From: Mobula birostris
Taxonomy: Eukaryota
Direction: 5' to 3'
Assembly (NCBI RefSeq): GCF_030028105.1
Contig: NC_092370.1
Span: forward strand, 108,700,793-108,764,792
DNA length: 64,000 nucleotides
A program made the translations under genes and the position numbers. This document shows positions 10,326-54,195 of the stretch, piece after piece. The notes below the pieces were generated by a model. That model searched no databases, was not told the origin of the DNA, and saw only the letters and a program-made list of their open reading frames with translations. How positions within the stretch are numbered: position 1 is the stretch's first letter; every line of letters starts with the position of its first letter.

Positions 10326-10458
10326 GGTCCTGACAAAGGGTCTCGGCCCGAAACGTCGACTGTACCTCTTCCTAGAGATGCTGTCTGGCCTGCTGCATTC
10401 ACCAGCAACTTTTATGCATGTTGCTTGAAATTCCAGCATCTGCAGATTTCCTCGTGTT
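10326..10458 (+). mobile_element. Penelope-derived short repeat with hammerhead-like motif
   Basis: ggtc-CTGACAA-agggtctcggccc-GAAAC-GTC-gact followed by ...ccagcatctgcagatttc, the same terminus as the GIY-YIG Penelope at 37774. Confidence 0.8.
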
Positions 10459-10734
10459 TACTGATCTTTTTACATGGCTTTTCATTCTCCCATTGTAATT
10501 TAAAGCATTTTTGCATGGCTTTTCTGTTTCCCTTTAAAACTTGAACCCCACATCCTGGCTGCTTTTTGGAGGCCTGCATATAACTCCCATCAGGGTCTTT
10601 TTACCTAGCCGTTTCTTAACTCTACCCACAAGGATTCTGTATCTTCTGATTCTATGAACTAAGAAAATTTAGAACTAAGAACATTGCAAGAAAAATCAGA
10701 AAGAGGCCATTTAGTCTTTAATAAGATGTGATTA

Positions 10735-11165
10735 ACATACGAGGTGATGTACTCACTGGAGTTTAGAAGAATGAGGGGGGATCTCACTGAAACCTACTGA
10801 ATATTGAAAGGTCTAGATGGAGTGATCATAGAGAGGGTGTTTCCTATAGTGGGAGAGTTCATAACCAAAGAGCACTGCCTCAGAGTGAAAGAACCTACCT
10901 TTAGAAATGAGATGAGGAGGAATATCTTTAGTCAAAGCGTAGTGAAACTGTGAAATTCATTGCCAGAGCTGATTGTGGTGACAAAGTCATTTGGGATATT
11001 TAAAGTGGAAGTTGATAAGGTCTTCATTAGTCAGTGTGTCAAAGGTTACTGGGAGAGAGCAAGAGAATGAGATTGAGAGGGAAAATAAATCAGCCACAAT
11101 CAAATGGTGGAGTGGACTCAATAGGCTGAATGGCAGAATTCTGCTCCTATCTCTTATGGTCTTCT
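10735..11165 (+). mobile_element. CR1 3' fragment
   Basis: tactcactggagtttagaagaatgaggggggatctc... through ctcctatctcttatggtc. Confidence 0.85.
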
Positions 11166-11338
11166 GATCCAAAATGCTCTCATACTACACCAGCTTTTCT
11201 CATTGCAGATACAGTTAAACTACTTAATATTCCCTGTATATTTCAATGTCATGGCTGAATACCAAATACTTATATCATAATACTCACAGACAAAATTAGA
11301 AAACAGATATAAGCAGAGAAATTCTATTACACAATATA

Positions 11339-12174
11339 CAGTGGATTCCAGTTAATTAAGCAATCAGTTGATCAGGGCAGCCACATATGGGACAACTCTT
11401 AAAGAAGAAAAAGAATCAAGAAAATAGCCATGATTTCCTTCATTTATTTTGGACACTATGCCGTTTAATTGGAGCTGGAGACTATTGCCAAACATTTTTA
11501 ACTAGTGTCAGTCACGGTGCTCATTGTGTGGCTGTTAGAAACTACACTGTGTTTAGTGCGAATAGTTCTTAAATATAGTCAGTTGCGTGTGTTTGTGTTC
11601 AGAGTGGTAATTTTTAGTACTGATAGTTGGCAAGTAATTAACAGTAAGACAATTCAGAAAATATTTTGCTCTCTGCAGTTTCAAACATTCAGGCTTGGAG
11701 GTGCCAGAAATGGCTGACAGTGCAAATTAAATGATTTCTGTACTTCAATAAATTAGAAACTATGAAGAAGTTGAAAATATCAACAATCATCTTAAATTTT
11801 ACAGTGAAGATTTGGAGGATGCAATCCTTGAAAGCACTATTTGAAGGCAGTCCACCATCTGCACTATGTATCAGCATTAATTTTGTTCATTTATAGTCAA
11901 TCAAAAGAACCTGTCAGTGTATACTGAATATATTCCTCTGTTGATAACTACTGGGAACTAATACAACACTTTTTAAATAATATTGTAGTAGCTTTGGCAG
12001 AGTTCTAAGTTATTCTAAATTTCTAATTTATTCAAATTACATAATTTGTTTCTCAGTTAAATGGTAGTTTGTCTTTTCATACCTTTTTAATTACGTCCAT
12101 GAAACTTGGGGCAGGCGCTCAATTGGGCTAACGTGTACTAGTCCCGAAGTGTCCCAATTAATCGGAATCTACTG
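11339..12174. mobile_element. Non-autonomous Tigger/pogo-like (TcMar) DNA transposon
   Basis: TIRs cagtggattccagttaatt (11339-11357) and aattaatcggaatctactg (12156-12174) match 16/19. TA on the left, TG on the right. Confidence 0.75.
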
Positions 12175-12920: not shown

Positions 12921-12951
12921 TTGATTGTTATGGAAATGTGTAGTACTGTAT

Positions 12952-13420: not shown

Positions 13421-13449
13421 TTAATACCCATGTTTCCATATCTTGATAT

Positions 13450-15100: not shown

Positions 15101-16144
15101 CTGATAATAATTTCCCATTTTTAAATGAAAGTGCAAGCCTCACTCAAAACTGACAGGGGATTAACTGATCAACTGTCAAGATAAATAGGCTGTGCTTGCA
15201 TACAGTCAGATTCATATTGCAAGCAAAGGATGGGGATTCTCAATGTGGTTAGGTTGAACAATCTCCTGTTTACAATGCACTTCCATCCACATGTTGACCA
15301 TTTTCAAATGACAACTGGCATCAAGCAGATGCATGGTTTTGGAAGTGGTTGATTTGAAAAGATTTGAAAAGAAAAGGAAGTGGCTGATTCTTAACTCCTA
15401 ATTTTTACACCTTTCCACTCTTTACATTTTCCTCTTTCATCACTCCAAATTATTTTCCAGTGTCACTTGCAGAAACATCTGAAAGATTGATTAATTCTGT
15501 TTCCTCCATGAGTTACCCGACTGTCAACCACCTTCTCCATTTAAATGGATCACAGCTAATCTACAACTCAATTCCATGGCACAGTCTTGATTTGTCACCA
15601 AGAGTTCTAAACAAACTTATGACATTTCCAGCATTTGAAGTCAATCGGAGCATGAAAATATCATCATTTTCAGGGCTCCCTCTAGGTCCCATATCATTCT
15701 GACTTACACAAAAAAACATTTCTATCGATTGCAAAATTCTGGAACTCCGCCTACCTGCACATTGAAAGTTTTCTTTTACCACTTAGCTACAGCAATTCAA
15801 GGAGATAGATCAGAGCCCCACCCTTTAAGATTAGTTGAAGATGGGCAATAAACGTCAGCTTTTACAACCAATGTCAACATATTTCTTTGAAATCCCCGAT
15901 ATTCTTTTGTATTAATTTAATTGTGAGAAACGTTAACTGACTTTTGAAAAGAGTAATGAATTGAAACAAGAGATCCTGCAGATACTGGAAATCTTGAGCT
16001 ACAGACACAAAGTGCGTGGGAAACTCAGCAAGTCAGGCAGTATCAAATGCACATACTTTTTTTTTATTTATCTTGCAGATAATCCCAACCTTTCTCTTCT
16101 CAACTGTTGGTTGGTTATTTGTGTACCACCCTAAAGAGTTGATT

Positions 16145-16306: not shown

Positions 16307-16659
16307 GTATGTTTTATTTTCAGCGTTGATGGTTTCGAAGTTAAAAAAGAATCTTTGGTTGTTCTCTGCAACATGTATTACACACTACAGTAGATTAATA
16401 TGTTCCTCTTGTATTTGTCGAGTTAACACCTTGGCGGGTCTAGAGGCGGAGATAATTTTAATCTGTTTTTAATGAAGCAAATTATTGCTTTGCATTGACG
16501 GGATGATGTTAAATATCCTCTCTTTCCCGTGAGTTCAGTATGAAGTTGGGAAAATGTGTTATCGTTATACTTTGGAGAGGATAAATAAGCGGGGCCGATT
16601 ATAGAAATTATATTTTTTCCCTCTCCCCACCCCAGTGCAGAGTCCTGTGAACTCACAGG

Positions 16660-16996
16660 ATGTTAAGTTGCACGAAGAAAGGTGAGGAAAGTGCAGACTC
16701 ATCCATGCCCATTGACTTCTACTCTGTCCCTCTGAGCGCCCTGAACGTCGCGGTGAGGAAGAAGCTGGCACTCTTCCTCAATCCCAAGAGTGTAGTGGCG
16801 GCAGACTGGACGGAGCTCGCTGAGGAGATGGGTTTTCATTACCTCGAGATTAGGAACTACGACCGGTTAGAGAATCCTACCGGTAAACTGTTGGACGAAT
16901 GGGGATCTAGAGAGGGTTCTTCCGTGGGCAAATTGCTGGAGCTGCTGAGGAAGATAGAGCGAGAAGATATCCTTGAAGACCTCATGATACCCATTG
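16660..16996 (+). CDS. MYD88: MyD88 coding exon 1 (death domain)
   Basis: ATG at 16660 (caggATG, -3 A) gives MLSCTKKGEESADSSMPIDFYSVPLSALNVAVRKKLALFLNPKSVVAADWTELAEEMGFHYLEIRNY...GKLLELLRKIEREDIL, a MyD88 death domain. Phase-1 donor ATTG|gtaagc at 16996/16997. Confidence 0.97.
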
Positions 16997-17269
16997 GTAA
17001 GCTTCTTGATCTCAAGTTTCCCCTGCATTCTTGTATATGCAGTATTATTATTTTACACCTTGGGGAGCATTTTATACTTCTTTTGCATTTTGCCTTTCAA
17101 TTGCCATCCTCAACTGACAGTGGGTCTACCCTTTCAGTACTTCAAATGAAACATTAAACCAGAGTCGAATCAGCAGTAGTAGGTGAACGTAAAAGATTCC
17201 CCAATACGATTTGGAAAAAGACCCAATGGTATCTAGCTGGTTGAAGTGCAAGATGGTGCTTTGGTGAAG

Positions 17270-18790: not shown

Positions 18791-18809
18791 ATGAGGCATT
18801 TAGGTAGAT

Positions 18810-19410: not shown

Positions 19411-19440
19411 ACTGTGAAGGACATGAGAGACATTGGAGAT

Positions 19441-19616
19441 CAACGTACAAAATGCGGGAGGAGCTCAGCAGGTCAGGCAGCATCAATGAAGGGAAATAAG
19501 CAATGGACATCTTAGTCCAAGTCCTGATAAAGGGTCTTAGCCCAAACATCAACTGTTTATTTTCCTTCATAGATCTTGCATGACCTGCTGAGTTCTTCTA
19601 GTATTTTGTGTGTTGA
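19441..19616. mobile_element. Fold-back element made of two inverted Penelope termini
   Basis: Arms 19441-19504 and 19552-19616 are imperfect reverse complements, with a degenerate hammerhead-like core at 19521-19555. Confidence 0.75.
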
Positions 19617-20472
19617 ACTATCAAGGAACTGTGAGAGAGATAGACCATATGTAGTTTAAATTGTAGGAATTGTTGGCATAGACATCGTTGGCCAAACAGC
19701 CTGATCCTGCAGTGTAATACTCTATGTTCATTGCTGTTTTTTCCCAAAGAAATTTCCGTTGCATAAACCATCTGCTGTTTTTGAGATATTTCCCTGCATA
19801 AATCAAATGTTGTGTCTTCTACACAATAGTGCTTGCAGATTAAATGTGCTTCATTGATTATAAAGTAGTTTGGGGAAGAACATCTATGAATAGAGAATTT
19901 CTACTTCCTGTGCAATGTGGAGACATTGGAAATTGTGCTGAATCTGGCCATCTGTCTCTGTAGTTTCACAAAGCATCTGGTTCTTTCGCCATTCTCAGTG
20001 CAGTGTCTCAGAAACTTACGTGAAAAATTCATAGAAGTCAAATCGAGGATCTGGTGAAAGATAAATTCCTTACCCAATTGAGACAGTCTTTGATGATGTT
20101 GTATTTCCTTGTGATTAAGTTTGCTGAAGTCTTAGAATTGGAAATAAATAAAATAAAGGTAAGTCTCTTTTTAGCTCATTCACATAGTGTGGTCACCAGT
20201 GGAAGGCCGGACATTGAGGGTCTATCCCAATTTCCCTTTGAAATGAATGGATTACACTGTCATTTTAGATGGAAGTTGAGAATGAACCACATAGTTAGAT
20301 CTGCAGCTACGTTCAGGCAAACCAGAGGAAGAGTAGTAGGTTTGCTTATGAGGACATGGATTTTACAGCATTCCAGTGATCGTATGGTCACCTTTTGCAA
20401 TTCCAAATTTTTATTTCCAAATTTGTTTAATTACATTTTCAGTGCATTCTCCAACTGCTGTGGAAGGACTTA

Positions 20473-20939: not shown

Positions 20940-20942
20940 TTA

Positions 20943-22910
20943 GACTATAAGACCATAAGACATAGGAGCAGAATTAGGCCATTCAGCCAATCACGACTCC
21001 TTTTCCAATCCATTATGGCTGATTCATTATCTCTCTCAACCATCTTCTCTTGCCTCCTCCCGTAACCTTTGACACCTTGACTAACCAGTAACCTATCAAT
21101 ATCTGCTCTAAATACACTCAATGACTTGGCCTCTACAGCCATACATGGCAATGAACTCCACAGGTTCCCTACCCTCTGGCTAGAGAAATTCCTTCTCATC
21201 TCTGTTCTAAATTGATATCCCTCCATTCTGAGGATGTGCCTTCTGGTTCTAGACTCGCCCACTATAGGGAACATCCTCTCCACATTCATTCTATCTAGAC
21301 CTTTCAATATCAGATAGGTTTCAGTAAGATTCCCCCTCACTCTTCTAAGTTCCAGTGAGTATAATCTCAGAACCATCAAATGCTCCTCAAACATTAACCC
21401 TTTCATTCCTGGAAACATTCTTGTGATCCTTCTCTGGACGCCCTCCAGTGCCAGCACATCTCTTTTGTAGATTAGAGGCCCAAAACTGCACATAATACAC
21501 CAATGCATTCTGGCCAATCTGTTATAAAGCCTTAGCATCACATTCTTGCTCTTGGATTCTCATCATCTTGAAATTAATGCTAACATTGCATTTACCTTCC
21601 TCACCACAGACTCAATCTGCAAGTTAACCTTTAGGGAATGCTGCACAAGGATTCCAAAGTCCCTTTGCACCTTTTGAAATTTCTCCCAGTTTAGAAAATT
21701 GTACACACCTTTAACCTTTCTAACAAAGTGCATGACAACACTCTTCCCTAAACTATATTCCATCTGCCATTTCTTTGCCATTCTCCCAATCTGTCCAAGT
21801 CCTTCTGCAAACTCCTTGCTTCCTCAACACTACCCGTGCCTCCACCTATCCTTGTATTGTCTGCAAACTTGGCCACAAAGCTATCAATTCTGTCATCCAA
21901 ATGGTTGGCATATAACGTGAAAAGAGGCAATCCAAATACAGACTCCTGCAGAGTACCACGAGTCACCGGCAGTAAACCAAAATAGGCCTCCTTTATTCTG
22001 ACTCTTTGCCTCCTCCAGTCAGCCAATGCTCTATCCATGCTACTAGCTTTCCTGTAATTCCATGGGCTCTTATCTTCTTAAGCAGTCTCATGTGCAGCAC
22101 CTTGATAAGGGCCTTCTGAAAATCCAAGTAAACAACATCCACTGACTCTTTGTCTATCCTGCTTGTTATTTCCTCAAAGAATTCCAACAGATTTGTTAGG
22201 CAAGATTTCCACTCAGGGAAACCATGCTGACTTTGGACTACTTGATCATGAGCCTCTTAGCCCAAAATCTCATCCTTAATAATTGACTCCAACATCTTCC
22301 CAACCACTGAAGTTAGGCTAAATGGCCTATAATTTCCTTTCTTCTGTCTCCCTCCCTTCTTAAATAGTGGAGAGACACTTGCAAAGTTCTAGTCCACCAG
22401 AATCTAGTGATTATTGACAGATCATTGCTAATGCCTCCATAATCTCTTCAGCTACCTCTTTCAGATCCCTGGGGTGTAGTCCATTTGGTCCGGGACATAT
22501 TTACCTTCAAACCATTCTGCTTCCCAAATATCTTCTCCTTAGTAATAGCAACTACACTCACTTCTGCCCCGTGATATTCTTGAATTTCTGACATGTTGCT
22601 TGTGTCTTCCACAGTGAAGACTGGCACAAAGTATTTACTAAATTTGTCTGCCATTTCCTTGTTCCCCATTACTACCTCTCCAGCATCATTTTCCTGCAGT
22701 CCATCCACTCTCGCCTCTCTTTTATCATTTATATATCTGAAAAATCGTTTGGTTTTCTCTTTGATATTCTTGGCTAACTTACCTTCATATTTCATCTTTT
22801 CTATCCTCATGCTTTTTTAGTTACCTTCTACTGGCTTTTAACAGCTTCCTAATATTCTAACTTCTCATTTTTTGCTATATTATATGCCCTCTTTTTTTGC
22901 TTTTATGACT
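20943..22910 (-). mobile_element. CR1-like LINE, ~2 kb with 3' end
   Basis: ORFs 20945-22810(-) contain YLDFQKA, KFADNT and WQMEYS motifs. Tail (cttatggt)n on the minus strand. Confidence 0.92.
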
Positions 22911-30786: not shown

Positions 30787-31038
<252 letters not shown>

Positions 31039-32790: not shown

Positions 32791-33006
<216 letters not shown>

Positions 33007-33671: not shown

Positions 33672-33872
<201 letters not shown>

Positions 33873-35370
33873 GAGTGCCTAGACAAGGAATGAAACCACT
33901 CAAGTTGATTGGAGTAAAAATTGTATGGGGATTCTACAATAAGATCACTCAGTGAACTATACTCAAGGACTGGCTCTGTTATATTAACTACTTTATGCTT
34001 TCTTCAGTGTTAAAATAACTGAATACCTTTCATCCAGGGGCCAGATTTAATTTAAATGAAAGGAAGTTTTGGAGCAAGTATAATAATGGTTTAGAACATG
34101 TTGCACAGGAAATGCAAACTATGAACTGCCACATGGAAACATCAAACACCATATCTATGCCTTTAAATCAAGCAACCGAAAAGCCTGTAATTAGATTAGA
34201 TATTCTATTTGACCAATTGTGTTTTCACGGGCTCAAAATAGAGCACCTGCTTCTTTCTTTTACCTCTTCCAACCCATGAGAAGATAGTGGCTAGTTATTT
34301 TGTGATAACTTACATTATAAATTACTTCACAATCTAAAATGTTGGCTTTATTGGAGGTAGCCATATAGTCCCCATGGTTACTGAAAATTCAAGCAATACA
34401 GTTGCAGACAAGGTAGTACAATTGTTATTTGTTGCAAGTTCTTCAGACTTCAGGTTAAAAATTGACCTGATGTCAAATGATGATCTTCTTTCAAAGTGGC
34501 ACATGTACTCCTAACTGATATTACAAATTGCATAAAGTGGCAAATAATATCCATTTAGTTTGGAATAAATACATACATTCTCTAATGATTGTATTAATAG
34601 GCTATTCTAGAGTAACAATCCAGGGAGTGAGAGTTCAAAATTTGTTTATTTTCTACAAATGCAACCAAGGGAAGACTGATAAAGCACTTAAAATTGGTTA
34701 AAAAAAAGACTTAATTAAAGTAGACATTAAACCATTTCCACTTTTCACAAGAATTCCAAGATGGGAGGCCATAAACAAAAGATATTCACTAATAATTTCA
34801 ACAGTTGAATCTGTGAAATATTTTTCCACATTGCGTAATGTGTATCGTTGAGGTGTGCACTTCATTGAAGTGGAAATTACATGAACACAGGAGCTGCGAA
34901 GAGGAGGAGAAAATGTTGAATTAGTAAACGAAGAAGGGAAAGAAGAGGCTTATGTGGAAAATTTGCTGATTGGCTTGAAAATTCATTAAAAGTTAGCTTT
35001 AAGGCATTATGGAAAACCATAATGTTTTGTGGAGTATAAAATCTACCATCCTTGTTCAATGGCCTATTTGTTATACCAGTTCCAAACCATTATTGTTGAT
35101 TCCAAACTGCTTTCTGAAGTGATTTATTTAACTATTCAGTTGTATCAAGCTCCTGTCAATACTTCCGAGGGCAACTAGAAATGGGGTGAAAACTACCTTC
35201 ACTAATGGTGTCCATATCAGTGAATGAGAGCTTGCTATCTGACAGAGAATTTGTAGTCAATAGTTGGAACATTAATAATTTCATCTGCATTTTAGAAAAT
35301 GCAATAGAAAGTAGGCTTTTTCCTTTCGACACTGTGGGTATAACTTTTAACCTGCACATTTATTTGTTCA

Positions 35371-35476
35371 CAAGCAAGAGAAAATCTGCAGGTGCTGGAA
35401 ATCCAAGCAACACACACAAAATGCTGGAGGCACTCAGCAGGCCAGGCAGCATCTATGGAAAAGAATACGGTTGATG
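35371..35476 (-). mobile_element. Penelope-terminus short insertion with 11-bp TSD
   Basis: Flanked by ttatttgttca at 35360-35370 and 35477-35487. Confidence 0.8.
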
Positions 35477-35974
35477 TTATTTGTTCAATTTTTTTGCTAT
35501 GGTTTTATGCATTATTAATAAAATCACTTTTTTACACAATTTTTGTTTTCCTTTTTTCGAAACACCAATAAACACTTTGCGGAAGTTTGTTTATCAATTT
35601 CTAATGATTGTTATCATAACACTGCCTTGTATAGTAAATCAAATTCACATGGAAGACATTTAAAAAAAAATTTACATATGGTTTTGTCAAAGGGAAGTTG
35701 TGTTTGTGAGGATGAATGAAAGGGGGCCAATGAAAGTACAAAACTGAATTAACAAAAGACATTCCACGAAGTGTCAGGGAGAAAAAAATATTGCACAAAG
35801 AGTTTGTGGCTTTGTGTTATAGATCATGGAACCAGGCCTTTCAGTCCAATTTCGTCCATATCAGCAATCAGCTTGTACCTTCTGCCTGCATTTGGCTTGC
35901 AGTCCTCTAAAAGTCTCCCACTTGTTACTTGTCTAAATGGCTTTAAAATTTTGTTAATTTAACTTTGTAGGTTA

Positions 35975-37773
35975 AGGTGGCGCTGATAAGTGGCAACTCT
36001 GCGTGCGGCTTTAATAGGAATCATCAAACATTCGAATCAGAACGACTACAGCTGAAATTCACAGTCACAAGCATGGGTATTTAAAACATCTGAAAAAACT
36101 ATTGATACTTAATTGCAGTGATATCAGCGGACCCTGGAAAGGAGACTTGTGTCACGAGAGCAGTTCCCCTTTAAGAAAACAGAAGGGGGATGGCGCGCTG
36201 GTTTACAGGTACAACTGGAAATACCAAGTTCCTATACCACCACTCTTGACTCCTGCTAGTGAATGTACAGTCTCTTAAAATAAAATTGAGGACCCAAGAG
36301 CGAGATTGGTTTACCAGAGGGACATGAGGGATTGCTGTGTACTTTGCTTCATGGAATCATGGCTGTCCCCTGCCATTTCAGACACAGTGTTGTAGCCCAA
36401 TGGCTTCATCATTCTGCATGAAAACAGGACCGCTCAGTCTTCCATAGGCGGAGTAGGTTTTATGATTGATGGTGCCAATGAACAACACAGCTAACGGTGA
36501 CGTACTGCAGACTGTTCACAAAACTAATTCTTTAGCTACTTTCAGATATGATTCTAGTACTAAGCTGTATGCAACTAGAACCTGTGATTTACATTTTGAT
36601 GGTGTGGTGTTGCACTGATTAAGCATTCTGGCACCGTACTGTCTCTGAGAGAGTTTGGTGAGGTTGAAAGCGGAGTGGGTGGCCTGGAGAAGGGGCATGA
36701 GCTAATGCTTGGTTCCATTATTTCTCTCCAAAAGAGGCGTCGAGCAAGGTTGAAGTTGACAAAGATAAGAGCAGAGGATGGGTGTGTGTTGGGTGCCGCC
36801 TGCCTGCACTTGACAGGTCTTCTTCTCCCTCTTGCTAGCTGCTGTCAGAGGGAAGTGCAGGAGTCTTGGGATCCATGCCGCAAGGACTAATTGGTGAGGC
36901 TTGTGGCTGTGGTTTGTTTTGGGGGACTTTGAGGTTCACCTTGCATGTGTTTCTGGATTCTGGTTCCTCCTTGCTTTGCTGTTTTTGATCCGAGCATTCA
37001 ATGTGGACTGGGGTGCTCAGGTGAAGAATGGCTCTCTGGCCTGCAATTGGCCAGCAGCACTGTGCTGAACTGAACGAGACGGTATTATTGGACTCCTGGT
37101 TTGATAGTGTATGTGTTTTTCACCCACTTTTTGCCATTGGCACAATTTGTTCATTTTTCACGCGTTGGATGGTTGATATTTTCTTGAACGGGTACCATGG
37201 TGCTTCTTTGTTTTGTGACTGCCTGTGGGAGGATGAATCTCAAGAGTAGTATTCTGTATAATGTACTTTAAATCTTGGAAACTTTGAACCCCTTGTAGTG
37301 CACTGACATGGCAGTTCTGCTCACCCAACCTGGAACATCTGGTGGTCAAACATCCTCCTTTTTATCTGCCACAGAGTTCTCCGCCATCATCCTGGTGGCG
37401 GTATACAGTCCACCTCAGGCAAACATCAAGGAGGCACTGGAGGAACTGAGCTCCATAATCAACAGGCATGAAACAGTACACCTTGATGCCTTCCCATTCA
37501 TTCCCACTTCTTGCCAGGCTAGCTTGAAGAAGTCACCGAACATCCACTAACATATCGCCTATGGACCCAGAGGAGCCAATACACTTGATCAGTGTTATAT
37601 CATCATCAAAAATGCTTACCATGACATCCCATGCTAACTCTTTGGAAAGTCCAACCACCTGGCTGTACTTCTACTCCTAGCAGAGACTAAAGAACACAGC
37701 ACTACTGGTGAAGACCAAGAAGGTATGGTCAAGTAAGGTGGAGGAGTGCTTACAGGACTGCTTTGAGTCAGTG
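35975..37773 (+). mobile_element. Rex1/Babar-like LINE 5' part (endonuclease), interrupted at 36468-37290
   Basis: NKIED.RARL.YQRDMRDCCVLCFMESWL, then after the insert EFSAIILVAVYSPPQAN..EALEEL, TRGANTLD and LQDCFESV. Confidence 0.8.
36468..37290 (+). mobile_element. ~0.82 kb non-coding retroelement, copy 1
   Basis: Colinear similarity with 48352-49207. Ends in a LINE-type tail (gatgaatctca...aatgtacttt...ctttgaac). Confidence 0.7.
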
Positions 37774-38990
37774 AACACAAAATAATCTGCAGATACTGGG
37801 ATCAAAGCAACACTCACAACACACTGGAGGAACTCAGCAGGTCAGGCAGCATCCGTGGAAACGATGAGTTGATGTTTCGGGCCGGAACCCTTTGTCAGGA
37901 CTGAAGACGGAAGGGGCAGAGGCCCTATAAAGAAGGCGGGGGAGGGTTGGAAGGAGAAGTCTGGTAGGTTCAGTTGAAAAACCAGTAATTTGAAAGACAA
38001 AGGGGTGGAGGAGGGGAAGCAGCGAGGTGATAGGCAGGAAAACAATGGGTAGTAGAAGGAGACGGAACCATGAGGGAGGTGGTAGGCAGCTGGGGGAGGG
38101 GGCAGAGTGACATAGGGATAGAGGAAAGAAGGGGGAGGAAATTACCGGAAGTTGGGGAATTCTATGTTCATACCAAAGGGCTGGAGACTACCTCGATGGT
38201 ATATGAGGTGTTGCTCCTCCAACCTGAGTTTAGCCTCATCATGGCAGTAGAGGAGGTCATGTATGGACATATCTGAATGGGAATGGGAAGCAGAGCTGAA
38301 GTGGGTGGCTACCGGGAGATCCTGTCTGTTTTGGCGGACGGAGCGGAGGTGCTCGACTAAGTGGTCCCCCAATCTGCATCGGGTTTCACCAATGTAGGGG
38401 AGGCTGCACCGGGAGCACCGGATGCAATAGATGACCCCAACAGACTCACAAGTGAAGTGTTGTCTCACCTGGAAGGACTGTTTGGGGCCCTGAATGGCGG
38501 CAAGAGAGGAGGTGTAGGGACAGGTGTAGCACTTACGCTTACAGGGATAAGTGCCAGGTGGGAGATCTGTGGGGAGGGACAGATGGCTGCGGAAAGCGGA
38601 GAGGGGTGGAGAAGGAACGATGTGCTTAGTGGTGGGGTCCTGTTGAAGGTGGCGGAAGTTGCAGAGGATAATGTACTGGATCCGGAGGCTGGTGCCATTC
38701 CCTATCTCAGTTCCTCCGTCTCCACGGCATCTGCTCCAAGGATGAGACTTTCTGTTCTAGGACATCTCAAATGTCCTCTTTCTTTAAGGATCGTGGTTTC
38801 CCTTCTACCGTCATCAATGATGCCCTCACCCGCATCTCCTCCATTTCCCGCACTTCAGCCCTCACCCCATCCTCCCGCCACCACAACAGGGACAGAGTAC
38901 CCCTTGTCCTCACCTACCACCCCACCAGCCTCCGGATCTAGCACATTATCCTCCGCTACTTCCGGCACCTTCAACAAGACCCCACCAACT
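37774..38990 (-). mobile_element. Penelope-like retroelement (GIY-YIG endonuclease) with inverted 5' segment
   Basis: ORF 38142-38468(-): FTCESVGVIYCIRCSRCSLPYIGETRCRL...EHLRS...PVATHF...LEEQHLI...GMN. Hammerhead-like motif at 37866-37903(-). 38696-38990 is inverted relative to the rest. Confidence 0.92.
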
Positions 38991-39419: not shown

Positions 39420-40478
39420 CATCCCAAAGGAACCAAACTAAAAAGCTGATTATTGACTACTGGGAGAGGAAACAGGAGGCCCATGAGCCAAACCTCACCA
39501 GAGGATCAGAGGTGGAGAGGGTCAGTAACTTTAAATTCCTCGACGAAGATCTGTCCTGGAAACAGAACGTTAGTGCCATTACAATGAAGACACAGCATGC
39601 CTCTACTTTTTTAGAAGTCTGCAAAGCTTTGGCATGCCATATAAAACTTTGGTAAACTTCTATAGTTGCAGAGTGGAGAGTTTCCTGACTGGTTGCATGA
39701 CAGCCTGGTATGGAAACACCAATGCCCTTTAAAAGAAAACCCTACAAAAAGTAGTGGATACAGCCTAGTCCATCACAGGCAAAACCCTCCCCACCATTGA
39801 GTACATCTATAAAGAGCGCTGTCACAAAAAAGCAGCACTGATCATCAAGGACCCCCACCTTCCAGGCCATGATCTCTTCTCGCTGCTACCACTGGGAAGG
39901 AGGTACAGGAGACACCACCACCAGCTTCAGTAACAATTTCCACCTCCAACCACCAAGTTCCTGAACCAGAGTGGATAACTTCACTCACTTCAACACTGAA
40001 CTGATTCCACAAACAAGAGAAAATCTGCAGATGCTGGAAATCTGAGCAACACACACGAGTCACGCCGAAGGGTTTCGGCCTGAAATGTCGATTGTACTCT
40101 TTTCCATTTGTTCTGCTGAAGGGTTTCAGCCCGAAGTGTTGACTGTACACTTTTCCATAGATGCTGCCTGGCCTGCTGAGTTCCTCCAGCATTCTGTATG
40201 TGCTGTCCACAAACTATGGACTCACTTTTAAGGATTCTACAACTTAAGTTCTCAATATAATTTATTAATCATTTAGTTACTATTACAATTGTTTTTTTTC
40301 TTTTTGTATTTGCACAATTTGTTGCCTTCTGCACATTATTTGTTTGTCTGTCTTGGTGTGTAGTCTTTCATTGATTATTTTGTGTTTCTTTGTATCTACT
40401 GTAAAAAATTAATCTCAGGGTAGTATATGGTGACTTATATGTACTTTGATAATAAATGTATCTTGAACTTTGAACTTC
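39420..40478 (+). mobile_element. Rex1/Babar-like LINE 3' part with a nested Penelope-derived insert
   Basis: GSEVERVSNFKFL and NFYSCRVESFLTGCMTAWYGN motifs. Tail gataataaatgtatcttgaactttgaac. Confidence 0.8.
40015..40205. mobile_element. Penelope-derived composite insertion with two tandem hammerhead-like motifs and 9-bp TSD
   Basis: TSD tccacaaac at 40006-40014 and 40206-40214. Motifs gccgaagggtttcggcctgaaatgtcgatt and CTGCTGAagggtttcagcccGAAgtgttgact. Confidence 0.8.
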
Positions 40479-41780
40479 AGTCTTGTATTTGGCATCCTTT
40501 CCTCAGAATTTGACACTGTGCCTCCAATAATGTTTTTGAGAAAGCTATATGGTACCTTTCAGGACACCCAAAGGATCATTAAAGTTTTTGAACATTACAC
40601 TCTAATAAAGTAGAAAGAAAGGCTATTTTAGTGAAGCTCACAAGCAATGCAAAACAAACAGATAATGTAATGTTCTTGGTCTTCTTTGGAATGGTATGAT
40701 GGGATAATTTACAATCTGTAGTCAGGTAATACCTTATCCAAAAGGTGGCATCTCTGCCTGTGTTCCATTACCTTGTTATTTCGGTGTTCTGGTGTCTGTC
40801 CTCAGGTCCCGGCTGTAACAACTAAATCTACAACCCTGTGACTCTCAGTACATTCCAACAACTGAGCCCTGAAAAAAAAGCAGTGGTACAACCTGAACTA
40901 TTGACTTTCTTAACTCTGCATTTCTTAATTCTACTTTTCACCACCTGTCTATTTTATCCTACAGAGTCCTATAAATAAAGCTAAAAATATTGCTGAAAGT
41001 AAGTTCTCTCTGGACAGTAAAGAAATGAAACAGAGAATGCTGTGAACTCTATCGGCTCCACCAGTTGATGTGTGAGAAATAAGCATGTTAAATTTTCAAA
41101 CGGACAGCCTTTGTTAAAACTGCTTTCTTTATTTTTGCTTTATTTCAAACAGCTGCCTTGATTTCTAAAAATAGCCCAAAGCCTAACTCAATACCCTAAC
41201 CAATCAATATATGTTCTGAGATAACATATTAAAAGTGAAGTGATAATAACCGCAAGGTATTTGTGTGTCGTATTTCCTATGTAACTTCATAAACAATCCA
41301 GAATCTTTGAATTGTTTTTGAAATTCTAAGATCATGACAAGAGCTAGAATAAATGCACCATTTCTTAAATACGCTGCTGATTTGAAAGGTAACAACACAA
41401 TTGTTTTTATTAAAGGCCTTTTAGATCAAAACCAGGAATTTGAACTACATGTTGCTTTCCCAAACTAACTCATAACTTGCACTACCAAACTGCCTACATA
41501 TGACAATGAAATATATTGATGATAAAATTAGTTATTGAACATGCAAAGAACAAAGGCCTTATGGCATCAAGAAGACAGCCACAATACACAATAAAAATGT
41601 GGCACGGGGCATGGCACTGCATAGAATATATAATACACAAAGTGCATAGAACTGGCAATTGGTTCTCAAAATCTGGGCAGCAAAATTTTGATCAATAGTG
41701 GAGGTTCCTTGGAAACTATGAAAATGAAGTAGTACCAAAATGGACCCTGTTTTGCATGAGATATTACTAACGCATGAGTT

Positions 41781-42705
41781 TTACGGCCTGGATGTCGGGG
41801 TAGAAGGGTGGGTTGGCAAATTTGCAGATGACACAAGGGTTGGTGGTGTTGTAGATAGTGTAGAGGATTGTCAAAGATTGCAGAGAGACATTGATAGGAT
41901 GCAGAAGTGGGCTGAGAAGTGGCAGATGGAGTTCAACCCGGAGAAGTGTGAGGTGGTACACTTTGGAAGGACAAATTCCAAAGTAAATGGCAGGATACTT
42001 GGTAGTGTGGAGGAGCAGAGGGATCTGGGGGTACATGTCCACAGAACCCTGTAAGTTGCCTCACAGGTGGATGGGGTAGTTAAGAAAGCTTATGGGGTGT
42101 TAGCTTTCATAAGTCGAGGGATAGAGTTTAAGAGTCGCGATGTAATGATGCAGCTCTATAAAACTCTGGTTAGGCCACACTTGGGGTATTGTGTCCAGTT
42201 CTGGTCGCCTCACTATAGGAAGGATGTGGAAGCATTGGAAAAGGTACAGAGGAGATTTACCAGGATGCTGCCTGGTTTAGAGAGTATGCATTATGACCAG
42301 AGATTAAGGGGGCTAGGGCTTTACTCTTTGAAGAGAAGGAGGTTGAGAAGAGAGATGATAGAGGTATACAAGATAATAAGAGGAATAGATAGAGTGGATA
42401 GCCAGCGCCTCTTCTCCAGGGCACCACTGCTCAATACAAGAGGAATGGCTTTAAGGTAAGGGGTGGGAAGTTCAAGGGGGATATTAGAGGAAGGTTTTTT
42501 ACTCAGAGAGTGGTTGGTGCGTGGAATGCACTGCCTGAGTCGGTGGTGGAGGCAGATACACTAGTGAAACTTAAGAGACTACTGGACAGGAATATGGAGG
42601 AATTTATTTTGGGGGCTTATATGGGAGGCAGGGTTTTAGGGTCGGCACAACATTGTGGGCCAAAGGGCCTGTAATGTGCTGTACTATTCTATGTTCTATG
42701 TTCTA
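41781..42705 (+). mobile_element. Young CR1 3' end
   Basis: KFADDTRVGG, WAEKWQMEFN, LVRPHLGYCVQFWSP. Tail (ttctatg)n. Possible TSD atgagtt at 41774-41780 and 42705-42711. Confidence 0.93.
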
Positions 42706-43498: not shown

Positions 43499-44872
43499 TA
43501 ATGTTCCCTCTAATTTTTTTTAGAGCTGTGCAGACCAACAGCAGGAAATTTTTACAGGACCTGAAAACGGTGTGGCACATTAAATGTTTTTTTTTCATAA
43601 TATGCATATGTTACTTTATACTTTATTGTCACCAAACAATTGATACTACAGCGTACAATCACCACAGCGATATTTGATTCTGCTCTTCGTGCTCCCTGGA
43701 GTGCAAATCGATAGTAAATATTAAAAATTTAAATTATAAATCATAAATAGAAAATAGAAAAGGGAAAGTAAGGTAGTGCAAAATAACCAAGAGGCAGGTC
43801 CGGATATTTGGAGGGTATGGCCCAGATCCGGGTCAGGATCCATTCAGCAATCTTATCACAGTTGGAAAGAAGCTGTTCCCAAATCTGGCCATACAAGTCT
43901 TCAAGCACCTGAGCCTTCTCCCGGAGGGAAGAGGGACAAAAAATGTGTTGGCTGGGTGGGCCATGTCCTTGATTATCCTTGATTATCCTGGCAGCACTGC
44001 TCCGACAGCATGCAGTGTAAGGTGAGTCCAAGGATGGAAGATTGGTTTGTGTGATGTGCTGTGCTGTGTTCACGATCTTCTGCAGCTTCTTCCGGTCTTG
44101 GACAGGACAACTTCCATACCAGGTTGTGATGCACCACAGAAGAATGCTTTCTACGGTGCACCTATAAAAATTAGTGAGTGTTTTAGGGGACAGGCCAAAT
44201 TTCCTTAGCTTCCTCAGGAAGTAAATGTGCTGGTGGGCCTTCTTGGCAGTGGACTCTGCTTGATTGGACCAAGTCAGGTCATTTGTGATATTGACCCTGA
44301 GGAATTTAAAGCTTTTGACCTGTTCCGCTTGCGCACCACCGATGTAAATGGGGTGGTGCGGTCCGCTACTCCTTCTGAAGTCAACAAGCAATTCCTTCCT
44401 CTTGCTGACATTAAGGGATAGGTTATTGTTGTGTCATCAGCAAACTTATATATTGAGTTTGATGGAAACTTGGCTACACAATCATGAGTGTACAGTGAGT
44501 ACAGCAGGGGGCTGAGTACACAGCCCCGTGGGACACCGGTGCTCAGAGTGATTGTAGAGGAGAGCTTGTCCCCTATTTTTACAGCCTGGGTCCTATCTGT
44601 GAGGAAGTTGAAGATCCAGCTGCAGATCTGGGTGCTAAGGCCCAGGTTCCTTATCTATGAATATACAGAATGAAAACTGAAAAATCACAAACTTTTGATT
44701 TGATTTATTCATTGAAGGGTAGAATTAAATACAGTACAAAGAAATTCTTTCATGTTTTGTAAACTTTTTCTTGTCTCTCTTTATTCCAGCTATGTGGCAA
44801 CAAAGGTTAGGTGTGCGAGAGCATTTTATTTATTGCATGTCCACGCACCCATGCAGCTTAGAGGTAACAGTG
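43499..44872. mobile_element. Non-autonomous hAT-type DNA transposon carrying a nested LINE
   Basis: TIRs taatgttccctctaa and ttagaggtaacagtg match 12/15. Perfect 8-bp TSD ccactgaa at 43491-43498 and 44873-44880. Confidence 0.85.
43612..44650 (-). mobile_element. Rex1/Babar-like LINE nested in the hAT element
   Basis: ORF 43741-44391(-): VKSFKFL...NDLTWS...YFLRKLRKFG...FYRCTVESIL..CITTWYG. Confidence 0.88.
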
Positions 44873-45454: not shown

Positions 45455-46660
45455 AATCAGAATCAGGTTTAATATCAAAAACAAGAGAAAATCTGCAGAT
45501 GCTGGAAATCTGAGCAACACACACAAAATATGGAGGAACTCAGCACATCAGGAAGTATTTACGGAAAAAAATACAGTCGACATTTCGGGCTGAAACCCTT
45601 CAGCAGGACTGTTTTAATATCACGGGCATATGTCAAGAAACTTGTTGTTTTGCAACAGCGGTACTTTGCAATACATAATCATAATAAATATAAATTACAA
45701 TAAGAGATATATATAAAAAATAAAATTAAATATGTAGCGAAAACGTAGGAAAACATAGTGATGTAGCATTCGTACATTCATTGTTCATTCAGAAATCTGA
45801 TGGCGGAGGGGAAAAAGCTGTTCCTGTAATGTTTAGTATGTGCCTTCAGGCTTCTATACCTCTTCCTTGATGGTAGCAACGAGAAGGGGGCACGTCCTGG
45901 GTGATGGGAGTCCTCAATGATGAATGCCGCCTTTTTGAGGCTCCGCCTTTTAAAGATGTCCTTGAGGTTGGAGAGGCTAGTGCCCATAATGGAGCTGGCA
46001 GAGTTTATAACTTACTGCAGCTTTCTCTGATCTTGTACAATGGCCCCTCCATACTAGACAGTGATGCAACCAGATAGAATGCTCTCCATGGTACAACTGT
46101 TGAATTGTTCAAGTGATTTTGGTGAGATACCAAACTTCCTCAAACTTCTAATGAAATATAGCCATCATCATGCCTTCTTTGTAACTGCATCAATATGTTG
46201 GACCCAGGATAAATTTTCGGAGATGTCAACACCCAGGAACTTGAAACTGCTCACCCTTTCCACTGCTGATCCCTTGATGAGGGCTGCTGTGTGTTCCCTT
46301 GACTTCACCTGCTTGAAGTCCACAATCAATTTGTTGATCTTACCGATGTTGTGTGCAAGGTGTTTGTTGTGACACCACTCAACCTGCTCATCTACTTCAC
46401 TCCTGTATGCTTCCACATCACCACCTGAAATTCTGCCAACAAAAGTTGTATTATCAGCAAATTTATAGACGGTGTTTGATCTGTGACGAGCCACATAATC
46501 GTTAGTATAGACCGAGTAGGACAGGGGGGTAAGCACACATCTTTGAGGTGTGCCAGTGCTGAATGTCTGCGAGGAGGTACAGTGGACCAGGCTTTGGAGC
46601 ATCTTGATTATAACTGATGGCATGATAACGTTGAATGCTCAGCAGTAATCAATAAAAGCA
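45455..46660 (-). mobile_element. Rex1/Babar-like LINE 3' part
   Basis: ORF 46168-46623(-): GTPQRCVLTPL.YS.YTND...KFADNT. ORF 45778-45987(-) is the C-terminus. Tail (aatcag)n. Confidence 0.85.
45478..45612 (-). mobile_element. Penelope-terminus short insertion with hammerhead-like motif and 10-bp TSD
   Basis: TSD tttaatatca at 45468-45477 and 45613-45622. Minus strand reads acagtc-CTGCTGA-agggtttcagccc-GAAAT-GTC-gactgt. Confidence 0.82.
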
Positions 46661-50184: not shown

Positions 50185-51520
50185 GGTTGAGTTGAGTTGT
50201 TCTCTGATATTGGCAATCCATTTACAAATGTTTCATCATTATATGACGAGACATCATCAGAGCACTGTTCACTTGTGGTATGCCCTCCGAATGCTTGGCT
50301 TTTGTATACTTATCAATCAGTTGTGATGTAGGGAGGGGTTCTCATTGCTGATTAGCTGCGTGGTGAACTCTGTGCATTGTCTGGAATTGTGTCTGCATTG
50401 ACTTATAAATGGGATTGCGGTCTACATGTCAGTTTATAGAATTGTTTGTGGAAAACCATGCTTCTAGGAACTCTCTTGCATGCCGCGTGCTTGCTTGCAC
50501 CAGGACTCTCAATGATGCTTAATCGAATTTGTGCCCCTCTCAATCTTCATGGGTAGAGACTAAGGAGAGTTGGTCATGGCACTTTATAGCCAGTTGATGT
50601 TCCATGTGGATAGTTTTCTCCCAGTTTGGCCGATGTAATATTTACTGCAGTCCCTGCACTGGATTTTGTAGACCACATTGGTCTTGTCCAATTGCTTGGT
50701 TTGTTCTTTAGGTCTGCAGAGTACTCTCCTCAATGCTGCAGATGGTTTATGTGAGACCAAAACTTATGTTCTTGGAGCAGTCAGGCTGTCTTTTCTGAGA
50801 TATTTCGAATCTATGGGACAACCCATTTGGTCGCTTCTTGGTTGGTACATTGTCTACATCGTAGGCATCTTCGTATGAAGCTATGTGGGTATTGGTTTCA
50901 TGTGAATACTCCGAAGAGATGTTTCTCCTCTTCATCCTTTAGCTCCAAAGATCGAGAGTGGCACAAATTCCACTGGGCGTCAGTGAAAGGCATGGTGCAG
51001 ACAAACACACGACATGCAAGAGAGTTCCTAGAAGTGTGGTTTTCCATAAACAATTCTATAAACAGACATGTAGACTGCAATCCCATTAATAAGCCAATGC
51101 GGGCAAAATTCCAGACAACACACAGGGTTTACCACACAACCAATCAGTGACAAGACCCCCTCTCTACATCATAATTGAGTTTCCATAATGATGACCAATC
51201 AACTGATTGATAAATATATAAAAGCAAAGCATTCATCTATATGAGGGGTGATTGATAAGTTTATGGCCTAAGGTAGAAGGAGTCAATTCTAGAAAACCTA
51301 GCACATTTATTTTTCAACTTAGTCCCCTCCTACATTTACACACTTAGTCCAGTGCTCGTGGAGCATACAGATCTTGGACCTCCAGAAAGTGCCCACAAAA
51401 GGGGTGATTGATAAGTTTGTGTCCTAAACTGATGATGTTTTCTGGTATGGTGATGAAACATTTACAAATGGAGAACAACTCAACCCAGCCATCAACCATC
51501 TGAGCTACACATTTTCTGAA
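50185..51520. mobile_element. Second-family Penelope-like element in inverted arrangement
   Basis: Minus strand YIGQTGRKL...HQLAIK (GIY-YIG) near 50540-50680. ~50290-50550 is inverted at ~50950-51235 (AREFLE.WFS..NSINRHVD). CTGATGA..GAAAC motifs at both outer ends. Confidence 0.8.
51240..51427. mobile_element. Mariner-type transposon end fragment inserted in the Penelope element
   Basis: ta-tgaggggtgattgataagtt mariner-like TIR, repeated directly at 51401-51427. Confidence 0.7.
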
Positions 51521-52399
51521 TTATTTCCATTTAAATTCATAATGTGTTTGTGGATGTCGAACCAGAGAAGAAAATGTTCTGTGGAATGACCATTAACAAC
51601 TGTGAGTGGGAGAAAGAATTTAATGAGAAGTACAATAGCCAAAGGGTCAGCTGGTCATTAAGGAGAAAGAATTTAATGTAAAGTGGAATGAAGGAATGAA
51701 TGGCTCATTCCACTTACAGAAATATGAACCAGCTGTGCTAGAAGGACAGTCAGCTCACATTTGTTATCCAGCATTCCAGAATCTGTAGATATTTGTAAGA
51801 TGATAATCCATGTATCTACAGTGTAGATAATTGGGCTTTTTTTTGCGGAGGGGGAGGTTTAGTCTCATACTTATCTAGTTTTATTTTTATTAATGCTAAT
51901 TTTCTTCTGTTTCTTATTCTCAGTGAACTCTTACAGGTCTAGTAATACTAGCAAGCTTTATACGTCTTTTCCGTGAAGGGACCATATATTCTCATTCTAA
52001 GTACCAGTCTTGTGGCAAAGTACTGTAAGTCAGCTCTAGGTCATGACAAAAAGCTGTTGAAAGCCTACCACTTTATAAGGGACAGATTTCTAAAATTATA
52101 GGTGTCGAAACGTTTAAAATTTTGCTGTATAATTTTATGTACTTTTCTCTTTTAACAACATAAAACAAAACAATAAAAATACCTTGATAATGATAAAATA
52201 ATAAATTCAGGAAAATTAATGGCTGTGTAGTGTTCTCGTGCAGTGTGTTGAAACTCTGACTAAACACCAAGTTAAACCGGAGCCAATGAAGACAAAGTCA
52301 TAGTAAGGTTAACCATTTACTGTTCACTCTTCCACATTAACATCGTATGGTGAAAACTGTTGATAAAAAAATACAAACATATACAGCGTCTGTTTCATT

Positions 52400-52720
52400 C
52401 TGGAGACCACGCACACTCTCTCCTTTTAGTGAGTGTCTCCAGCTGCCCCGATTTGCGGGCGAGGAGGTCACGTCAAACCGCCGCCGGGCCCGAGCCCACC
52501 CTGCGTTTGAAATTGAAAAGCCGACACGTGCGCCACCCGAACTGCCACTCCCTTAACAGAAACTACGTTAATATTTTTACTTCAAATACTTTCATAGGAA
52601 CTTACGACGTTGCTTCTATAATGTTTCCTTATGGGTAGACACGGAGCTCTTCACGATCATGCTGCACGCATGGCACCCACCTTTACACTTTCTCCGAACC
52701 GGAGGTGATGTCATCACATG
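52400..52720. promoter_or_regulatory. Small CpG island, promoter- or enhancer-like, gene not identified
   Basis: Dense CpGs (ccgccgccgggcccgag), GGTCACGTCA 52466-52475, CACGTG ~52525, TGATGTCA 52706-52713. No TE homology recognised. Confidence 0.45.
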
Positions 52721-54060
52721 CCATGATATACCATAGACAATGAATTTACCTTTGTTAAACTGTAACTTAATTATCAACCTTCAACGTTAATTAGATAATA
52801 GTTACAAATCATTTAAAGCGTAGACCCAACAAAGTCAAATAAATGCCTTAAGGGTAACACAGGCTGCATACTTCATTTTTGAACAACATCCATATAAGTT
52901 TAGTTCTAATTTGCTGTTTCAAGTTGTGCAATTTTCTAAAACAAAACTGTCCTGTGAGGATTGTACATTTTTTTTGGAGGCTTTCTAAAACTTTGCTAAG
53001 TATGATTTTGTCATTCCATTCCATAACTGTAAACAAATTAACCTACAAAATAGGGGCTTTGGGAGAAACAGGTGGCAATCATTGGGCATTTCAGGCCACA
53101 TCAGAGGTGGAAAGGTGGGTGTTGAGTGAGATGTGACCCACGGACCATATGTTATGCACCATAGATCCAGCATTACAACACTCCCTCAATGCTGCACTAC
53201 CTGAAGTGTCAAACTATTTTTAAGCTTTAAATAATAATTGCAGAAAATAAGGACAGAGCCTATTTAAAATATATCCTTTCTTGAGAATTATTTGAAAATG
53301 AGTTGTTTATATATTTCTCCTCTATAAATGGACATAAGTAAACAAGTGACAGTAAGAAAAGAATCACAAGTAACAGAAGACCACAGGACATGAAAGAATA
53401 TTGAGGGATCAAGAAAGAAGAGTAAAAAGAAAATTACAAAGGTAAAGATGCACTATGAACTTAAATTATTAAGGAATAATAAATACCTTAAGACCTAATC
53501 TATCAAAAAAGGAGAAGTTTAATACCTTTATTGAATAAGGACCATGCCAAGGGTAAATATCGGGAGATAGCAGACAGGTGGCGCCAGATCGTGGTGGCTT
53601 GCTGCAAGTTGGTCTTTGCAGATCCATGTTCATTACTTAGTTCTGTATTCATTACTACTATTATAATCAGGCTACTTTTTTAAAATCTAAATTATAAGCT
53701 GTAGTTGCTTCCCCTTGTACTACCTTGATGGACTGCTGTGAGGAAATGATTTGTACTTGATGTCAAGCAAACAACGTTTTCACTGTACCTCAGAACATGG
53801 AGAATAATACACCAACTCCAATTCATTATTGTACTTCATATTTCAGAATCAGATTTAGGTTTAATATCACTGGCATACATCAGGAAAGTTATTGTTTTGT
53901 GGCAGCAGTACACTGAAATACATAATAATAAAAACTATCAATGCCAACAAGAATAGTAGAGGGAGGTACAGAGGCCCAGGTTTTGGAGTTTGCTGATTAG
54001 AACTGAGGGAATGATTGTGTTGAACACTGATCAATACTCAATAAACAGTAGCCTGTCATA

Positions 54061-54195
54061 GGTCCTGAAGAAAGATCTCAGACTGAAATGTCGACAGTTT
54101 GTTCATTTCCATGGGTGCTGCCTGACCTGCTGAGTTCCTCCAGCATTTTGTATGGGTTGCTTTAGATTTCCAGCATCTGCAGAATTTCTTGTGTC
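54061..54195 (+). mobile_element. Penelope-terminus repeat with intact hammerhead core nucleotides
   Basis: gtc-CTGAAGA-aagatctcagact-GAAAT-GTC-gac followed by ...ccagcatctgcagaatttc. Confidence 0.75.

What the first reader, a model, noticed from the sequence alone, without database searches (positions are those of the whole stretch)
10326..54195. Dispersed Penelope-derived repeats carry minimal type-I hammerhead ribozyme motifs
Seen: at least six copies share the layout stemI-CTGNNRA-a-GGG(loop)CCC-GAAA(C/T)-GTC-stemI'. They are 10326-10361(+), 19521-19555(+), 37866-37903(-), two in 40063-40145(+), 45573-45612(-) and 54062-54095(+). The 45573 copy has a 6-bp stem I (acagtc/gactgt) and a 3-bp stem II but CUGCUGA instead of CUGAUGA. 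The 54062 copy keeps CUGAAGA, GAAA and GUC but stem II is eroded. The 10326 and 37866 copies show G8->A, consistent with CpG decay of CTGACGA. Known: Penelope-like element termini encode minimal hammerheads with a palindromic ACGT in place of stem III and are thought to cleave as dimers. Inference: this genome has a very abundant, retrozyme-like non-autonomous family with two core variants (A6 and C6). Most copies here are probably inactive.
Basis: partly seen in the sequence, partly recalled or inferred. Interest (0 to 1): 0.7.

Follow-up and report, generated by a model that had tools for sequence, protein, structure and literature searches.

The report
Penelope end-repeat hammerheads with A6C lineage
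The repeats are real but are decayed, cut-short ends of a protein-coding Penelope-type jumping gene carrying an already known tiny self-cutting RNA motif; the one unusual point is an older lineage that spread to likely tens of thousands of copies with a core letter change (A6C) that would be expected to slow cutting (cutting untested).

Summary
The motif is present at all six sites (seven cores; 0 hits in 5 shuffles). It is the minimal type-I hammerhead in the pseudo-LTR of an autonomous Penelope-like retrotransposon (RT + GIY-YIG, Neptune-type linker), likely in a shark or ray genome of 4.0 Gb. The 37866 copy follows a GIY-YIG remnant, and 7 of 20 long loci are pLTR-ORF-pLTR units of about 3.5 kb. 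The copies are 5'-truncated or inverted insertions, not retrozyme arrays. About 410,000 copies cover the motif (extrapolated); 38,763 match an intact A6 pattern exactly. None of the seven window cores is canonical and intact. The C6 variant is real: 24 of 26 copies picked only by upstream sequence carry it, they form one older clade (about 9% diverged), and their endonuclease shows purifying selection. Core and stems are conserved between lineages far above synonymous sites, without double-sided covariation. No clear pile-up of copy ends at the cut site. Cleavage is untested. The scan has noted this motif many times on other DNA (54 notes), and A6C in three notes.

The parts
10326..10461 (+). 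pLTR end fragment starting at stem I; A6 core with G8A; includes the 3' tail
19433..19619 (.). Inverted pair: 19433-19504(-) arm and 19519-19619(+) arm whose core has G8A and lacks G12; lies in an intron of a MYD88-like gene
37772..37903 (-). 3' pLTR with hammerhead (TCCG-loop subfamily; G8A, 16.2 and stem I decayed)
38160..38693 (-). C-terminal ORF remnant of the same element: CxxxCxxC linker and GIY-YIG endonuclease, ending about 260 nt before the hammerhead
38705..38986 (+). Inverted 5' piece of the same insertion (ORF residues 552-645 of the 816-aa reference frame)
40007..40215 (.). Complex insertion: inverted tail (40007-40056 -), C6 core a (40058-40107 +, C3/U4 broken), C6 core b (40110-40215 +, A15.1G)
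45479..45611 (-). C6-lineage pLTR end starting at stem I, flanked by a target-site duplication of about 10 bp; the most intact window copy
   Evidence: (as L048)
54061..54198 (+). Old pLTR end starting at stem I; A6 core kept, stem II eroded
35367..35478 (-). Same repeat, truncated inside the hammerhead (no core); like fragments at 15966-16045, 30512-30620, 39287-39406, 54641-54751
50200..51178 (.). Second PLE family (Penelope/Poseidon-like GIY-YIG, inverted arms) with its own minimal hammerhead at about 50222-50265(-): same core, unrelated stems

Best explanation
These are 5'-truncated or inverted, decayed ends of an autonomous Penelope-like retrotransposon whose pseudo-LTR carries a minimal type-I hammerhead, which likely cuts only in source elements as a dimer or with the element's protein. 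Shown: the element is a unit of about 3.5 kb, pLTR-ORF(RT, GIY-YIG)-pLTR; the hammerhead lies 190-350 nt after the ORF end and about 135 nt before the likely start codon of the next unit; copies end at two sites about 75 and 103 nt past the predicted cut (the optional tail). Inferred: reverse transcription starts at those two internal sites on RNA that is not cut at the 3' hammerhead, runs back through the motif and usually stops early or folds back, which scatters hammerhead stubs through the genome, where they decay neutrally (mostly CpG). Inferred: in source elements the motif is under selection and would cut at GUC when two copies pair through the ACGU palindrome. Shown: one older, protein-coding lineage fixed A6C and still amplified. 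Inferred: fast cleavage is not rate-limiting for retrotransposition.
For: GIY-YIG remnant beside the 37866 copy. An 816-aa frame of the same family hits Pfam RVT_1 (E 1.5e-7) and GIY-YIG (E 6e-5), both above cut-off. Two same-strand hammerheads 3.51-3.65 kb apart in 7 of 20 long loci, which were chosen for long ORFs or an upstream pLTR. In 600 kb of random DNA, 3' ends fall at model positions 107-111 (23 of 129) and 135-138 (38 of 129), none at the cut. Inverted pairs 23 of 54 neighbours, tight tandems 3 of 54. Between subfamily consensuses core plus stems differ at 1-2 of 29 sites against 27-51 of 105 third codon positions (p 0.04 to 2e-6) and 79-122 of about 226 3'UTR sites. C6: 74 of the first 100 listed non-A6 matches are C, 15 G, 11 T (hand count); 24 of 26 readable copies picked by upstream sequence only; one clade of 34 rows with 31 C (96/87) on a tree that excludes the motif; endonuclease consensus without stops and 25 synonymous against 8 non-synonymous codon differences from the sister lineage. 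The same layout, tail, inversions, protein-assisted cleavage and dispensability for in vitro insertion are reported for PLEs (PMC4209133, PMC11167929, 10.1101/2021.04.23.441226).
Against: No cleavage data: only contigs, no raw reads, were offered. No double-sided compensatory change inside this family; the stem changes are one-sided (C-G to U.G, G-C to G.U), so conservation could partly reflect a promoter or protein-binding role. About a quarter of copies that reach the core begin within 3-8 nt of it (15 of 63 random; 12 of 43 and 23 of 76 in pattern-chosen loci), which plain random truncation does not explain. No full-length C6 element with two pLTRs was fetched. The tree's bootstrap had not converged (0.959), and 31 of the 34 clade rows came from loci chosen by likeness to one C6 copy.
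Confidence: 0.88

Rival explanations
1. A non-autonomous retrozyme-like family: short hammerhead units in tandem, expressed as circular RNAs and mobilised in trans by the PLE protein.
For: Most copies carry no ORF sequence (56 of 75 random). Two small tandem arrays exist (88-nt and 105-nt units), and 40063-40145 holds two cores.
Against: In both arrays the junction is not at the cut and destroys the core or stem I, and the units share private changes. Tight tandems are 3 of 54 neighbours. Tandem Repeats Finder finds no such array in the window. 5' ends are heterogeneous. Published retrozymes are tandem repeats with canonical type I motifs (PMC7229834 passages; 10.64898/2026.07.22.740005).
Confidence: 0.05
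2. The stub that starts at stem I is a defined short transcript (start site at stem I) that is copied on its own, SINE-like, beside the full element.
For: Start pile-up at stem I. 13 of 59 such copies have a target-site duplication of 9 or more ending within 12 nt of the core (control 4 of 173). Four window copies begin there.
Against: These stubs occur in several subfamilies and carry each one's diagnostic letters. No shared 5' leader or spliced exon was found among 99 copies examined. A stop of reverse transcription at the base of the long hairpin, or the start of the full element's own RNA, explains it equally well.
Confidence: 0.12
3. The motif is a non-cleaving relic kept for another job (promoter, splice acceptor or protein-binding fold), which is why A6C was tolerated.
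For: A6C fixed in a successful lineage. No clear cut-site pile-up. A6 monomers are predicted to fold into a long hairpin that buries the core. A pyrimidine tract and AG precede the core, and in D. virilis an intron ends at helix I (PMC4209133).
Against: The other 10 core letters, both stems and the ACGT palindrome are kept across lineages. An unrelated PLE family in the same window keeps the same core with different stems. A PLE hammerhead of Anolis cleaves with protein (PMC11167929).
Confidence: 0.15

Closest known systems
[quoted passage not shown]
   Same: Type I; no helix III loop; palindromic 15.2-16.2; extra nucleotide between A9 and 10.1; G10.1-C11.1 in most lineages; mostly single dispersed motifs from truncated PLEs; reported in Neptune and Poseidon elements of fishes.
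   Different: Stem II is short (4 bp with U.G). No shark or skate name occurs in the searchable supplement (file 1 could not be searched). The core variant described there is U3-A8, not A6C. The exact intact count here (38,763) exceeds the 4,000 and 9,000 given for coelacanth and Xenopus, by a different method.
EN+ PLEs, Neptune/Nematis type (Craig et al., 10.1101/2021.04.23.441226; passages read)
   Same: Single ORF with RT, CX2-5CxxC linker and C-terminal GIY-YIG with CCHH-like residues; partial tandems; inverted 5'-truncated arm; optional tail of about 30 nt.
   Different: Neptune against Nematis was not tested by RT phylogeny; no reference sequences were on hand.
PAc Poseidon of Anolis (Frangieh et al. 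2024, PMC11167929; parts 1-2 of 4 read)
   Same: Two internal 3' end sites downstream of the hammerhead define the tail; templates are uncut at the hammerhead.
   Different: There the ORF starts inside stem II; here the likely start is about 135 nt past the cut. Different clade.
Bcep176 A6C hammerhead (PMC3088659 passages; PMC7151607 part 1 of 4)
   Same: The same natural A6C core change; slow in Mg2+, good in Mn2+ in those ribozymes.
   Different: That is a single phage ribozyme. Here A6C is fixed in an animal retrotransposon lineage with an estimated 7,000-69,000 copies; activity untested.
Non-LTR retrozymes (PMC7229834 passages; 10.64898/2026.07.22.740005 parts 1-3 of 5)
   Same: Type I hammerhead; pLTR-related sequence; high copy number.
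   Different: Retrozymes are tandem 150-450 nt repeats with an intact motif in each unit and no ORF; these copies are single or inverted ends of an ORF-bearing element.

Membership tests
PLE minimal type-I hammerhead | Core CUGANGA...GAAA...UH with stems I and II | tested here: met
   Met in A6 subfamily consensuses and 38,763 exact genome matches. The C6 lineage departs at position 6; all seven window cores depart somewhere.
PLE minimal type-I hammerhead | Palindromic helix III stub and extra base between A9 and 10.1 | tested here: met
   ACGT and the extra A in the three main consensuses.
PLE minimal type-I hammerhead | Located in the pLTR of a PLE | tested here: met
PLE minimal type-I hammerhead | Stem covariation | tested here: inconclusive
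   Only one-sided, pair-keeping changes within the family; strong conservation against synonymous sites; wholly different stems around the same core in a second PLE family.
PLE minimal type-I hammerhead | Self-cleavage as dimer or with protein | not testable with these tools
   No raw reads; the genomic cut-site test is weak.
EN+ Penelope-like element | One ORF with RT and C-terminal GIY-YIG | tested here: met
   Pfam RVT_1 and GIY-YIG in an 816-aa frame.
EN+ Penelope-like element | Partial-tandem pLTRs, inverted 5'-truncated arm, optional tail | tested here: met
Neptune clade | CX2-5CxxC linker before the endonuclease | tested here: met
   Seen in the translations; shared with Nematis and Naiad, so not unique.
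Neptune clade | RT phylogenetic placement | not tested
   No reference PLE proteins on hand.
Non-LTR retrozyme | Tandem short repeats with an intact hammerhead in at least two consecutive units | tested here: not met
   3 of 54 tight tandems in 600 kb; the two arrays read have broken cores or stem I. Not scanned genome-wide.
Non-LTR retrozyme | No protein-coding source | tested here: not met
   Both A6 and C6 lineages are ORF-linked.
Non-LTR retrozyme | Abundant small circular RNA | not testable with these tools
   Only contigs were served.

The most novel reading that the evidence does not exclude
The A6C lineage is not a crippled ribozyme but a re-tuned one. In A6 copies G5-A6-C7-G8 can pair with the CGUC at the cut site and lock the monomer in an inactive hairpin, whereas C6 removes that pairing and leaves stems I and II open (predicted share of the open fold 0.18-0.31 in 3 of 3 C6 copies against 0.001 or less in 3 of 3 A6 copies). 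A6C would trade chemistry for folding, perhaps with a Mn2+ preference as in Bcep176, giving a natural, genome-scale pair of ribozyme alleles with which to test what PLE hammerheads do.
Probability: 0.15. Interest if true: 0.65.

Novelty: new variant of a known kind. Interest (0 to 1): 0.33.

Why it matters
The motif itself is known and the window copies are debris. What PLE hammerheads do in vivo is still open. A protein-coding lineage that amplified with A6C, while everything else in the motif stayed conserved, suggests the fold matters more than fast cleavage and gives a ready A6/C6 comparison for the bench. I found no paper on A6C in a PLE, but Lunse et al. on PLE hammerhead variants could not be read and may already list it.

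Tried and rejected
Rfam scan: no hammerhead family hit. PDB sequence search with the 816-aa frame: 0 matches. Pfam on the two window remnants: none; their identity rests on the longer relatives. Cut-site pile-up: 1,079 matches with a purine before the 3' cleavage product against 562 at a control site 3 nt further; 10 of 30 read loci were true truncations in each set (by eye), about 360 (187-570) against 187 (97-297). Of the 10 at the cut, 8 join an inverted arm, 7 of them with 1-4 nt shared letters, so this is inconclusive. Spliced 5' exon before stem I: rejected, no sense skipped-intron junction among 99 copies, and target duplications abut the start. Quasi-palindrome origin of C6 (pairing with the TTCG loop): not needed, since C6 also occurs with the CTCG loop. 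RNA evidence: no RNA holder on record and no raw reads; contigs cannot show ends or expression. The joint near the acceptor-like site was set aside because the same position is a junction hot spot in runs not guessed to be RNA. Lunse et al. is not held; it is cited only through PMC6765202.

Full report
Observation. The six sites hold seven cores with the stated layout. A profile built from 68 genome copies finds 16 fragments in the window and 129 in 600 kb of random genome stretches, against 0 in the reversed control. An ungapped test gives 6 window hits and 0 in 5 shuffles. Rfam has no hit. The genome is 4.0 Gb in 4,715 contigs; 'shark or ray' is my recollection of these repeats and the wording of earlier scan notes, not a call result. 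None of the seven cores is canonical and intact: 10326, 19521 and 37866 have G8A; 40063a has lost C3/U4; 40110b has A15.1G; 54062 has an eroded stem II; 45573 is whole apart from C6 and one wobble.

What it belongs to. The 37866 copy follows a frame with a CxxxCxxC linker and a GIY-YIG domain, whose 5' part is inverted. That peptide has 186,203 first-look candidates in the genome and an N-terminal piece 8,290, as expected for heavy 5' truncation. An 816-aa frame of the family passes the Pfam cut-offs for RVT_1 and GIY-YIG; a second frame hits both below cut-off. In 7 of 20 long loci two same-strand hammerhead regions lie 3.51-3.65 kb apart around the ORF (loci chosen for long ORFs or an upstream pLTR). 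The likely start codon is about 135 nt past the predicted cut (read; inferred). In the random set 3' ends cluster at two sites, 23 and 38 of 129, about 75 and 103 nt past the cut; none ends at the cut and 3 of 129 start there. Of 54 neighbour pairs within 1.5 kb, 23 are tight inverted pairs and 3 tight tandems. The two small arrays I read have junctions away from the cut and broken cores or stem I. This is the PLE insertion anatomy described in 10.1101/2021.04.23.441226 (passages) and PMC11167929 (parts 1-2), not that of retrozymes (PMC7229834 passages; 10.64898/2026.07.22.740005 parts 1-3).

Abundance. Exact patterns: 38,763 intact A6 motifs and 461 intact C6 motifs, with reversed controls 0. 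From 600 kb, 126 distinct fragments, 61 covering the motif and 15 intact by a relaxed rule extrapolate to about 840,000, 410,000 (310,000-520,000) and 100,000. This is high but not unique: a section title in PMC7229834 gives up to 120,000 for axolotl.

Selection on the motif. Three main subfamilies were resolved from 161 ORF-linked copies on sequence that excludes the motif. Their copies differ from their own consensus by about 1%, 3% and 9% (13, 30 and 30 copies). Between consensuses core plus stems differ at 1, 2 and 1 of 29 sites, against 36, 27 and 51 of 105 third codon positions and 35-54% of 3'UTR sites. A second PLE family in the window (50200-51178; GIY-YIG without the linker, Poseidon-like by motif) carries the same core with unrelated stems.

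The C6 variant. Among 1,894 non-A6 matches the first 100 listed are 74 C, 15 G and 11 T, with no C on the TCCG loop (hand count); random mutation from A would favour G. Thirty loci were fetched by likeness to the endonuclease end and 3'UTR of one C6 copy, without the motif: 29 were printed, 2 lacked position 6, and of the 26 left after removing the query 24 are C6, 1 A and 1 T. C6 copies form a clade of 34 rows (31 C; 96/87), sister to the youngest A6 family; 2 of the other 127 rows are C6; the bootstrap had not converged. The lineage's endonuclease consensus has no stop, keeps YIGET and CxxC, and differs from the A6 lineages mainly synonymously (25 against 8; 33 against 14 codons). It makes up 4 of 61 random copies, about 27,000 (7,000-69,000), and I saw no young member. 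Contigs from four other coded organism labels laid on a C6 copy keep C6 in 34-69% of depth (biased towards the query, relatedness unknown). A6C is known from phage Bcep176, with kobs below 0.1 per minute (PMC3088659 passage) and a Mn2+ preference (PMC7151607 part 1). Folding predicts that A6 monomers bury the core in a long hairpin while C6 monomers leave stems I and II open (3 copies each).

Mechanism. Shown: anatomy, linkage, subfamilies, conservation. Inferred: copies come from reverse transcription started at two internal sites on RNA uncut at the 3' hammerhead, with early stops and fold-backs; cleavage, if any, needs a dimer (PMC4209133) or the protein (PMC11167929). Unexplained: 15 of 63 random copies that reach the core start within 3-8 nt of it, some directly at a target duplication (13 of 59 against 4 of 173), with no spliced leader. 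This lead came from earlier notes; an RNA start or a reverse-transcription stop both fit.

Verdict. A real, known kind of motif; the retrozyme label is not supported; A6C in an autonomous lineage is a modest new variant. Searches found no paper on it, but Lunse et al. was not held and one supplement file of PMC4209133 could not be searched. The scan has 54 notes on this motif in at least 20 genomes and three on A6C.

Noticed in passing
window 16651-17010(+) and about 30800-33900(+): MYD88-like gene: death-domain exon (Pfam Death, E 1e-14) and TIR-like exons; the 19433-19619 pair lies in an intron, with its sense core broken.
   Followed up: partly
window 50200-51178: Inverted remnant of a second, Poseidon-like PLE with a different minimal hammerhead (predicted cut after GUU); an older family with 73-85% identity between copies.
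   Followed up: yes
L308, L299-L310 and listing: The youngest subfamily has fixed C11.1->U, giving G10.1.U11.1 or an alternative A-U register that absorbs the extra A; it is the commonest intact form.
   Followed up: partly
L257:2800-3150(-); L144:3254-3550(+): Small tandem arrays (88 and 105 nt) running from the first 3' end site back to the core; local duplications or repeated template jumps.
   Followed up: partly
L354, L366, L378, L385: Inverted-arm junctions that use stem I complementarity or a short palindrome as microhomology.
   Followed up: partly
sequence just 5' of stem I in all subfamilies: Pyrimidine tract ending in CAG or TAG, with a branch-point-like TACTAAC in some young copies: resembles a splice acceptor at helix I; no spliced copy was found.
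   Followed up: partly
window, many sites (e.g. 8789-9304, 20945-21559, 41780-42701, 43741-44654, 58112-59043): Dense fragments of non-LTR retrotransposons (CR1/L2-like and Rex-like by recall); 41780-42701 and 58112-59043 are 87-95% identical copies.
   Followed up: no
L181, upstream of 4948(-): The long PLE frame is inserted in what looks like a hAT-type DNA transposon remnant (recalled resemblance).
   Followed up: no
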